From Lytechinus pictus (Eukaryota): DNA of 64,000 bases. The position numbers and the translations under genes were made by a program. Shown piece by piece: positions 7,617 to 8,209 of this stretch. Position 1 is the stretch's first letter; each line of letters opens with the position of its first letter. Where the stretch lies: NCBI RefSeq assembly GCF_037042905.1, contig NC_087251.1, positions 48,486,001 to 48,550,000 of the forward strand, read 5' to 3'. A model generated the notes under the pieces. That model had not been told where the DNA came from, did no database searches, and was given only the letters and a program-made list of their open reading frames with translations.

Positions 7617-8209
7617 TTCAAAGCTGGGGGCCCGGGTTCGATTCCCGGCAGAGACATTTTTTCGGCATCACCAATTTTTCCAAAGGGTAGATAGCTCTGG
7701 GGTAACCTTGATTTAAGCTACGCCTTCCATTGTTCTCTTCATCCATTTCTTTACAATATTTAAATAAAAGAGTTGCCAAAGCTGTTGTACATGTATAACT
7801 TTACACATTTGTATACTTTCTCCCATACGTGTACTGTATCAAAGCAATAGCTTTGATCCAGCTGAAGCATGGCGGCTTGTCATTGTTCGAAACCCACCTT
7901 CACCCGACAAAGGAAATTATAATAGTGTCGAAAATCTATCTATCTGACGGTCAAGCGGATCGGTGTCGCCCTAGCCACTAACCCGTCTCTGTGGTCTAGT
8001 GGTTAAGGCACCGGCGTTCAAAGCTGGGGGCCCGGGTTCGATTCCCGGCAGATACATTTTTTCGGCATCACCAATTTTTCCAAAGGGTAGATAGCTCTGG
8101 GGAACCTTGATTTAAGCTACGCCTACCATTGTTCTCTTCATCCATTTATTTACAATATCTAAATAAAAGAGTTGCCAAAGCTGTTGTACATGTATAACTT
8201 TACACATTT
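7617..8209 (+). mobile_element. tRNA-containing repeat, partial tandem (5'-truncated copy + full copy, 400-bp period) between (TA)n tracts
   Basis: TTCAAAGCTGGGGGCCCGGG occurs at 7617 and at 8017. The downstream ~190 bp is near-identical in the two copies. Long (TA)n flanks on both sides. Confidence 0.9.
7985..8056 (+). tRNA. tRNA-like gene, anticodon TCA, one acceptor-stem mismatch
   Basis: GTCTCTG TG GTCT AGTGGTTA AGGC A CCGGC GTTCAAA GCTGG GGGC CCGGG TTCGATT CCCGG CAGATAC A, followed by T6. Confidence 0.6.

What the first reader, a model, noticed from the sequence alone, without database searches (positions are those of the whole stretch)
7617..8209. The tRNA-bearing family is a 400-bp unit with Penelope-like/retrozyme-like architecture associated with (TA)n
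Seen: an exact 400-bp period here, with a 5'-truncated copy ahead of a full copy and a linker (7811-7876) seen only at the junction. The linker includes the hairpin ATCAAAGC-AATA-GCTTTGAT. Seven copies or fragments occur in 64 kb, in four clusters that each adjoin TA microsatellite. 5' ends vary, and no TIR, TSD or poly(A) tail is visible. Established: partial-tandem and inverted pseudo-LTRs typify Penelope-like elements. The Naiad/Chlamys clade inserts in microsatellites, and some Naiads have in-frame UGA codons. Inference: a non-autonomous PLE-mobilised unit. If its autonomous partner has UGA-interrupted ORFs, the tRNA could be an element-supplied decoding factor (speculative).
Basis: partly seen in the sequence, partly recalled or inferred. 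Interest (0 to 1): 0.75.

Follow-up and report, generated by a model that had tools for sequence, protein, structure and literature searches.

The report
tRNA-carrying fold-back Penelope-type repeat
This is one copy of a very abundant, gene-less jumping repeat of a sea urchin that lands in TA repeats the way Penelope-like retrotransposons do and carries an intact stop-codon-matching tRNA gene next to a decayed mirror copy that could hide it; whether the tRNA does anything in translation is not shown.

Summary
The repeat is real: a 399-bp unit (about 405 bp in other copies) preceded by a 5'-truncated copy, with 7 pieces in the window whose 3' ends lie at TA tracts. The host is a Lytechinus sea urchin. 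The 'linker' is the unit's normal 5' part; contigs cross the head-to-tail seam in 3 of 4 runs laid. Truncation, partial tandems, head-to-head inversion and TA targeting fit a non-autonomous Penelope-like (PLE) passenger, but no partner ORF was found and no hammerhead is present. The 70-75 nt ahead of the tRNA are an antisense copy of it lacking the anticodon arm. All 8 cloverleaf-damaging differences lie on that copy, while the tRNA keeps 21 of 21 pairs and a T6 terminator, which points to selection. It is not tRNA-Sec, and nothing supports UGA decoding. The scan noted this family before at four other places in this genome. Verdict: new variant of a known kind (ribozyme-less, retrozyme-like PLE passenger); the tRNA's role is open.

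The parts
7535..7616 (.). Left (TA)n tract, target of insertion
7617..7810 (+). 5'-truncated upstream copy (pseudo-LTR-like); begins in the tRNA anticodon loop and runs to the seam
   Evidence: 97.4% to 8017-8209
7787..7834 (+). Seam: 10-bp stem (7787-7796 with 7825-7834) closing a variable AC/TA-rich loop that holds the family's usual 3' ends (7807-7815); inferred internal start of reverse transcription
   Evidence: P 0.96; loose ends and variants
7811..8209 (+). Full unit, 399 bp (about 6 bp shorter than other copies); decayed head-to-head fold-back
7838..7857 (+). 8-bp hairpin of the 'linker'; common variant 7841 A>G keeps it as G.U
7912..7980 (-). Antisense leader: decayed inverted copy of tRNA positions 13-72, the T6 terminator and the trailer, with the anticodon arm deleted
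   Evidence: 70% identity over aligned columns here, 77-82% in the 3 other copies; shuffles
7985..8056 (+). tRNA gene, 72 nt, 7/5 cloverleaf, 4-nt variable loop, anticodon TCA at 8018-8020, G at position 32; this copy has one acceptor mismatch (8053)
8057..8062 (+). T6 run directly after the discriminator base (Pol III terminator-type); a T5 run follows at 8075-8079
8063..8209 (+). 3' tail of the unit; equivalent of a second recurring 3' end near 8151-8155
   Evidence: loose ends at 7752-7756 in X1 and X10; same end in the 63622 fragment
8209..8341 (.). Right (TA)n tract, later interrupted by a 1.8-kb inverted-repeat element (8342-10153)
44267..44366 (-). 100-bp 3' fragment; its 5' junction is a 54-nt palindrome (44367-44420) made of a TA tract and an inverted 14-nt copy of the flank
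45276..45614 (+). 5'-truncated copy with intact tRNA (45390-45461), ending in (CA)n(TA)n
55210..55536 (+). 5'-truncated copy with intact tRNA (55311-55382), TA tracts on both sides
63622..63755 (-). Inverted 5'-truncated copy joined head-to-head, with 8 nt of overlap, to the next copy
63748..64000 (+). Direct copy with tRNA 63852-63923 (3 broken pairs), cut by the window end

Best explanation
A non-autonomous retroelement of about 405 bp, copied in trans by a TA-targeting Penelope-like element (clade unknown). SHOWN: the unit has no ORF, its copies keep a 3' end at TA tracts, lose variable amounts of the 5' end, and form head-to-tail and head-to-head joins. SHOWN: the unit is an old head-to-head duplication of a tRNA-headed sequence; one arm is an intact tRNA gene with terminator plus a 150-nt tail, the other a decayed antisense copy. 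INFERRED: the template is a long transcript (read-through, multimeric or circular) that spans the seam; the PLE endonuclease nicks a TA tract and the RT starts inside the RNA, in the AC-rich seam loop or about 55 nt upstream, then stops or folds back early, giving truncations, partial tandems and inversions. INFERRED: in that long RNA the antisense leader pairs with the acceptor, D and T arms and the U6 run, which would shield the template from tRNA-processing nucleases, whereas a Pol III transcript starting at the tRNA folds as a cloverleaf. The tRNA arm is probably kept because it serves the element: as a Pol III/TFIIIC promoter module (my odds about 45%), as a processing signal in place of a ribozyme (25%), as a recently captured passenger with no role (20%), or as a UGA decoder (10%).
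For: Insertion anatomy: matching the PLE features in PMC8557442 and PMC3846280. Seam crossed by listed contigs with 31 or more letters on both sides in 3 of 4 runs (X1 records 1, 2; X10 record 10; X14 records 20, 21). Loose ends behind 7807-7815 are (TA)n or (CA)n in X1, X8 and X10, and a second end at 7752 recurs in X1 (28 contigs) and X10 (10), like the two internal RT starts in an AC-rich stem loop shown for a PLE in vitro (PMC11167929). Fold-back: 0 of 2000 shuffles reach the whole-unit arm alignment, 1 of 2000 the inner arms, 13 of 2000 the outer arms. Asymmetry: 5 substitutions, 2 insertions and 1 deletion that would damage the cloverleaf all lie on the leader (sign test p 0.008, or 0.06 on substitutions alone); 2 of 4 window tRNAs keep 21 of 21 pairs. 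Polymorphic places in contigs: 0 of 72 in the tRNA against 26 of 327 elsewhere (p 0.007). Folding switches from cloverleaf-like to rod when the leader is included (z -5.1, 0 of 200 shuffles).
Against: No autonomous partner or shared PLE end was shown. No RNA evidence: all four runs were contigs and X8 is only guessed to be RNA. The rod has no covariation support: 0 of 101 pairs compensatory; of 36 listed variants 13 break and 6 keep predicted pairs; the G.U bias is 6 to 1, p 0.125. It may be only a relic of the duplication. The seam stem is not formed in the fold of the whole 593-nt locus. The low-variation block covers the whole right arm (0 of 46 and 0 of 83 places beyond the tRNA), not only the tRNA; contigs drop variants, and the window's 8010 A/T difference (2 of 4 copies) is absent from the table. 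Window copies differ at 2.0% in the tRNA and 3.4-4.4% elsewhere, a small gap. A 10-bp subterminal inverted repeat with an adjacent hairpin also recalls HINE elements.
Confidence: 0.65

Rival explanations
1. A tRNA-derived SINE moved by a microsatellite-targeting LINE; tandem and inverted joins are secondary.
For: tRNA with intact A and B boxes, fixed 3' end, variable 5' end, simple-repeat tail. The right arm alone (tRNA plus 150 nt) has SINE layout and may have been one.
Against: The tRNA is internal: all 4 tRNA-complete copies carry 101-174 nt of family sequence ahead of it. T6 and T5 follow it, so a Pol III transcript should stop before the tail (established Pol III behaviour). The seam is crossed in 3 of 4 runs.
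Confidence: 0.12
2. A non-autonomous rolling-circle element (HINE/DINE-1 type), read on the minus strand, with a fixed start at the TA side and variable termination.
For: Subterminal inverted repeat of 10 bp, a hairpin beside it, tandem copies; DINE-1-like elements are reported from sea urchin (PMC4067079).
Against: HINEs have 12-15 bp subTIRs 2-4 nt from the 5' end, a palindrome outside the 3' subTIR and TT targets; here the repeat is 10 bp, 14 nt from both ends, the hairpin is inside it and the targets are (TA)n. The fixed end scatters over 7807-7815 with a second cluster at 7752. No TC or CTRR termini. A head-to-head inverted truncated copy is present.
Confidence: 0.1
3. One reading: the unit belongs to a Naiad-type PLE with UGA-interrupted ORFs and supplies the tRNA that decodes them.
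For: The TCA anticodon is present in 4 of 4 window tRNAs, with no other letter at 5% or more at 8016-8022 in any of 4 runs from four organism labels; the cloverleaf and terminator are intact.
Against: 72 nt, 7/5 fold, 4-nt variable loop and 4-bp D stem against 90-101 nt, 9/4, long arm and 6-bp D stem for tRNA-Sec. G32 is atypical (recalled). Described UGA Naiads are from clams and spiders and use SECIS. No UGA-read-through ORF of 170 aa or more in the window looks like a PLE by eye (16 listed). High-copy predicted suppressor tRNAs arising from mobile elements are a known annotation artefact (Helenus). One X8 contig shows a TCC loop, a hint of origin from a sense tRNA by one base change (table 7).
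Confidence: 0.06
4. A MITE or foldback DNA transposon whose arms happen to contain a tRNA.
For: The unit is a decayed palindrome and some insertions are head-to-head.
Against: The arms are only 70-82% alike where alignable, there are no terminal inverted repeats, and 6 of 7 pieces lack one end, always the 5' end. A cut-and-paste element needs both ends.
Confidence: 0.05

Closest known systems
Animal non-LTR retrozymes (PMC7229834, passages; bioRxiv 10.64898/2026.07.22.740005, parts 1-3 of 5)
   Same: Non-coding 150-450 bp units, low GC, monomers and tandems, strongly self-paired RNA, proposed PLE mobilisation
   Different: No hammerhead found here; an intact tRNA gene with terminator and its antisense copy instead; circular RNA not tested; the preprint's main text has no 'tRNA', 'urchin' or 'Lytechinus'
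Non-autonomous Chlamys elements such as MRC1, and Naiad/Hydra PLE insertions (PMC8557442, parts 1-4 of 10)
   Same: Partial tandems, inverted 5'-truncated copies, microsatellite targets, lack of canonical hammerhead (Naiad/Chlamys)
   Different: Those share 3' ends with a known autonomous family; no partner is known here; none is described with a tRNA in the parts read (one mention of tRNA in the main text, on Sec recoding)
Helenus and Cassandra, TRIMs with small-RNA-derived Pol III promoters (PMC10886601, parts 1-2 of 6 and passages)
   Same: A tRNA-derived module inside a non-autonomous retroelement; source of spurious high-copy tRNA and suppressor-tRNA predictions
   Different: Helenus has LTRs, PBS, PPT and 4-5 bp target duplications and mainly conserves boxes A and B; here there are no LTR features and the whole cloverleaf is paired
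tRNA-derived SINEs (SINE2)
   Same: tRNA module, 5' truncation, simple-repeat 3' side
   Different: tRNA internal, followed at once by T6, preceded by its own antisense copy; head-to-tail seam common
Eukaryotic tRNA-Sec (PMC5330540, passages)
   Same: UCA anticodon only
   Different: Length, fold, variable arm, D stem and discriminator (A here) all differ

Membership tests
Non-autonomous PLE-mobilised element | 5'-truncated copies with partial tandem (pseudo-LTR) | tested here: met
Non-autonomous PLE-mobilised element | Inverted 5'-truncated copy adjoining the 5' end | tested here: met
   1 of 5 loci (63622-64000)
Non-autonomous PLE-mobilised element | Insertion in (TA)n, as for Naiad and Hydra | tested here: met
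   loose ends
Non-autonomous PLE-mobilised element | Alternative 3' ends ('tail') from internal RT starts | tested here: inconclusive
   two recurring ends about 55 nt apart, longer than the 30-40 bp described
Non-autonomous PLE-mobilised element | Terminal sequence shared with an autonomous RT/GIY-YIG element | not testable with these tools
   no genome held; 0 of 124 window ORFs hit RT or GIY-YIG; 0 motif hits in the Naiad paper's supplement
Non-LTR retrozyme | Type I hammerhead in each unit | tested here: not met
   no ribozyme family at E<=10; no core with 0-1 mismatch on either strand in 4 sequences (which had no positive control in the window)
Non-LTR retrozyme | Circular RNA | not testable with these tools
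   only contigs were available
SINE2 | tRNA at the 5' head, no terminator before the tail | tested here: not met
Helenus (TRIM) | Two LTRs, PBS, PPT, 4-5 bp TSD | tested here: not met
   the upstream repeat is a truncated tandem copy with no internal domain; no such TSD
HINE/DINE-1 (Helentron) | 12-15 bp subTIRs at set distances, 3' palindrome outside the subTIR, TT target | tested here: not met
tRNA-Sec | 90-101 nt, 9/4 fold, long variable arm, 6-bp D stem | tested here: not met
Functional opal suppressor tRNA | Intact cloverleaf, UCA anticodon, Pol III boxes and terminator | tested here: met
   (G32 is atypical)
Functional opal suppressor tRNA | Expressed, processed, charged, reads UGA | not testable with these tools
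   needs raw small-RNA data or experiments
A family already in Repbase or Dfam | Match to a deposited consensus | not testable with these tools
   neither library is offered

The most novel reading that the evidence does not exclude
A ribozyme-free retrozyme analogue with a switchable tRNA. Host tRNA-processing enzymes cut tandem transcripts at the tRNA to release monomers or circles for the PLE reverse transcriptase, the antisense leader controls when the tRNA is visible, and thousands of loci also yield a mature UCA tRNA able to read through UGA stops in sea urchin cells.
Probability: 0.12. Interest if true: 0.88.

Novelty: new variant of a known kind. Interest (0 to 1): 0.52.

Why it matters
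How PLEs choose and prime RNA templates is only beginning to be worked out, and described animal PLE passengers are defined by a hammerhead. A very abundant passenger without one, with two mapped candidate RT start sites and a tRNA module under apparent selection, is a natural substrate to test what a PLE needs in cis and whether tRNA processing can replace a ribozyme. It also explains likely mass false 'tRNA-SeC' calls in Lytechinus annotations. If the tRNA were charged, a model embryo would carry thousands of opal-suppressor genes spread by a transposon.

Tried and rejected
Whole-genome search: no genome held. Pattern scans found 0 matches in metagenome contigs (2 patterns), viral contigs and prokaryote genomes. 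PLE ORF near the copies: 0 of 124 ORFs of 75 aa or more beyond position 4000 hit RT or GIY-YIG; the only hit above a Pfam cut-off was the potassium channel, and 4 weak hits were below cut-off. Ribozymes: none. Covariation and strand (G.U) tests of the rod: not significant. Preferred 5' end near unit positions 67-80 (3 of 6 truncated pieces): p 0.058, no step in X1 depth, left as a hint. The start of the upstream copy in the anticodon loop is a single case and one search listed no place where many molecules begin; not used. Summed contig depth (about 0.9-1.0 million over the tRNA in X1 against 27-65 for the 8 listed X1 records) suggests thousands of copies or more, but the tool states it is no copy number. 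Literature: 10 searches showed no listing that describes this family, and three 17-18 nt motifs hit 0 papers. The library lacks most subscription journals, Repbase Reports and Dfam; supplements of the bioRxiv preprint were closed and none could be read for PMC8580430, so a prior description cannot be excluded.

Full report
Setting. The window is animal DNA of 36% GC. Its one recognisable coding stretch, a two-pore potassium channel exon at 48403-49380, is 100% identical to a protein labelled Lytechinus pictus and 89% to Diadema setosum, so the host is a Lytechinus sea urchin. No whole genome was held, so genome-wide statements rest on the window and on contigs of four public runs.

Observation. 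7617-7810 matches 8017-8209 at 97.4% with one indel, so the period is 400 then 399. BLAST finds 7 pieces in five loci. The other copies carry about 6 bases that this one lacks, so the family unit is about 405 bp. Four of 5 natural 3' ends are within 15 nt of a TA tract, and the fifth is 18 nt away behind (CA)n; 1.9% of the window is that close to a tract. Three of the four loci that lie wholly in the window have TA on both sides, which fits insertion into existing tracts. All truncations remove the 5' side. At 63622-64000 an inverted truncated copy joins a direct copy head-to-head with 8 nt of overlap, and at 44367-44420 the 5' junction is a 54-nt palindrome containing an inverted 14-nt copy of the flank.

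The family outside the window. Twenty of 24 listed runs hold the unit or part of it; those with the largest shares fall under four organism labels. I laid one run of each label on a rotated natural unit, 7704-8102, with the seam inside: 8299, 101, 535 and 21 contigs were laid. The linker has depth of the same order as the rest, so it is the unit's 5' part. Listed contigs bridge the seam by the tool's 31-letter rule in X1, X10 and X14; the X8 record has only 21 letters on one side. Loose ends behind 7807-7815 are (TA)n or (CA)n, and a second end at 7752 recurs in X1 and X10 and in the window's inverted fragment. None of the 19 loose ends shown (437 more not shown) points to a long coding extension. 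The family is very abundant, but copy number was not measured.

The tRNA. It is a 72-nt cloverleaf scoring 38-61 bits on the general Rfam tRNA model, with a TCA anticodon, a 4-nt variable loop, G at position 32 and T6 directly after the discriminator A. Two of 4 window copies keep 21 of 21 stem pairs, and the contigs' majority letter at 8053 repairs the mismatch in this copy. ARAGORN's 'SeC' label follows from the anticodon only: tRNA-Sec is 90-101 nt with a 9/4 fold, long variable arm and 6-bp D stem (PMC5330540). From recall, the D and T arms resemble tRNA-Gly/Glu and the loop is one base from Gly(UCC); one diverged X8 contig shows TCC. I could not test the isotype.

The fold-back. The unit folds far better than shuffles (z -4.2), also when the tRNA is held fixed and only the flanks are shuffled (z -5.2, 0 of 100). 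The reason is that the 5' half is a decayed inverted copy of the 3' half. The 70-75 nt ahead of the tRNA align to the reverse complement of tRNA positions 13-72, T6 and trailer at 70-82% over aligned columns with a 19-nt gap at the anticodon arm. Local scores beat 1000 of 1000 shuffles in 3 of 4 copies and 977 of 1000 in this one; the whole-unit alignment beats 2000 of 2000. This is what a fixed head-to-head PLE-type insertion of a tRNA-headed sequence would leave. The two arms began alike, so they give an internal control: of 11 differences in the tRNA-overlapping part, 8 would damage a stem or an invariant base, and all 8 are on the leader. Either the tRNA arm is under purifying selection in the master lineage, or it was replaced more recently. 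In the contigs, after dropping 5 places where this copy is the odd one out, 0 of 72 tRNA places are polymorphic against 26 of 327 elsewhere. The quiet block, however, spans the whole right arm, and contigs under-report variants.

Predicted consequence. From the tRNA start the RNA folds with acceptor, anticodon and T arms formed; with the leader it becomes a rod in which the acceptor, D and T sequences and the U run are paired to the leader and only the anticodon hairpin remains. Covariation does not support selection on this rod, so masking is a hypothesis. At the other end of the rod a 10-bp stem closes the variable AC/TA-rich loop that holds the usual 3' ends, although it did not form in the fold of the whole locus.

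Mechanism. Three copies start in the left arm and this locus holds one and a half units, and T6/T5 follow the tRNA, so a plain Pol III transcript cannot be the template; it must be a read-through, multimeric or circular RNA (inference). A purified PLE starts reverse transcription at two internal sites in an AC-rich stem loop after nicking AT-rich DNA, and does not need hammerhead cleavage (PMC11167929, parts 1-2 of 4). That model explains a 3' end in the middle of a continuing RNA, the two recurring ends and the partial tandem. Partial tandems, inverted 5' copies and (TA)n targets are described for Naiad and Hydra PLEs (PMC8557442), and palindromic 5' junctions for rotifer PLEs (PMC3846280). 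I put PLE mobilisation at 0.65; the partner is unidentified.

Comparison and novelty. It works like a non-LTR retrozyme or a non-autonomous Chlamys element but fails the retrozyme test (no hammerhead), the SINE test (internal, terminated tRNA), the Helenus test (no LTR features) and the HINE test. A tRNA module in a non-autonomous retroelement has a precedent among LTR elements, where it acts as a promoter and produces false suppressor-tRNA calls (PMC10886601). Ten searches showed no description of a tRNA-bearing PLE passenger, but Repbase and Dfam could not be checked. Earlier agents of this scan noted the same family at four other places in this genome, with readings from retrozyme-like to MITE; these are unchecked notes, and the few lines shown of them do not mention the antisense leader or the arm asymmetry.

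Verdict. Observation largely right, with corrected unit length and linker status. PLE-type passenger likely, decoding role unlikely. New variant of a known kind; interest 0.52.

Noticed in passing
window 8342-10153: A 1812-bp element with long inverted arms (about 480-535 bp at 77%, outer 238 bp at 95%) and identical CAGT termini sits inside the right TA tract; no Pfam hit in its ORFs. The same terminus adjoins a copy of the tRNA unit in one X8 contig (table 7). Looks like a non-autonomous TA-targeting DNA transposon.
   Followed up: partly
window 7486-7530 and 10174-10218: The 45 nt left of the TA tract recur inverted (91%) right of the tract, beyond the 1.8-kb element, and nowhere else in the window. 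Possibly an older fold-back duplication of the flank, like the 14-nt one at 44367-44420.
   Followed up: partly
window 48403-49380: Large exon of a KCNK12/13-like two-pore potassium channel; several tRNA-repeat copies lie within 3-7 kb of it.
   Followed up: partly
window 1475-3840: A 2.4-kb (CTA)n-based array with higher-order repeated blocks.
   Followed up: no
window 12327-12724: Five tandem copies of a 79-bp unit at 95% with internal palindromic-looking segments.
   Followed up: no
window 2-855: Inverted repeat with 376-nt arms at 84% and a 102-nt spacer, starting at a TA tract at the window edge.
   Followed up: no
window 7928-7955 in run X10: Contig depth over the T-arm part of the antisense leader drops several hundred-fold in organism C while the tRNA stays covered, so the leader may be much more diverged or deleted there; a hole in contigs proves nothing by itself.
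   Followed up: no
window 63622-63755: In this inverted fragment the T6 run is broken by an A; such copies could allow Pol III read-through.
   Followed up: no
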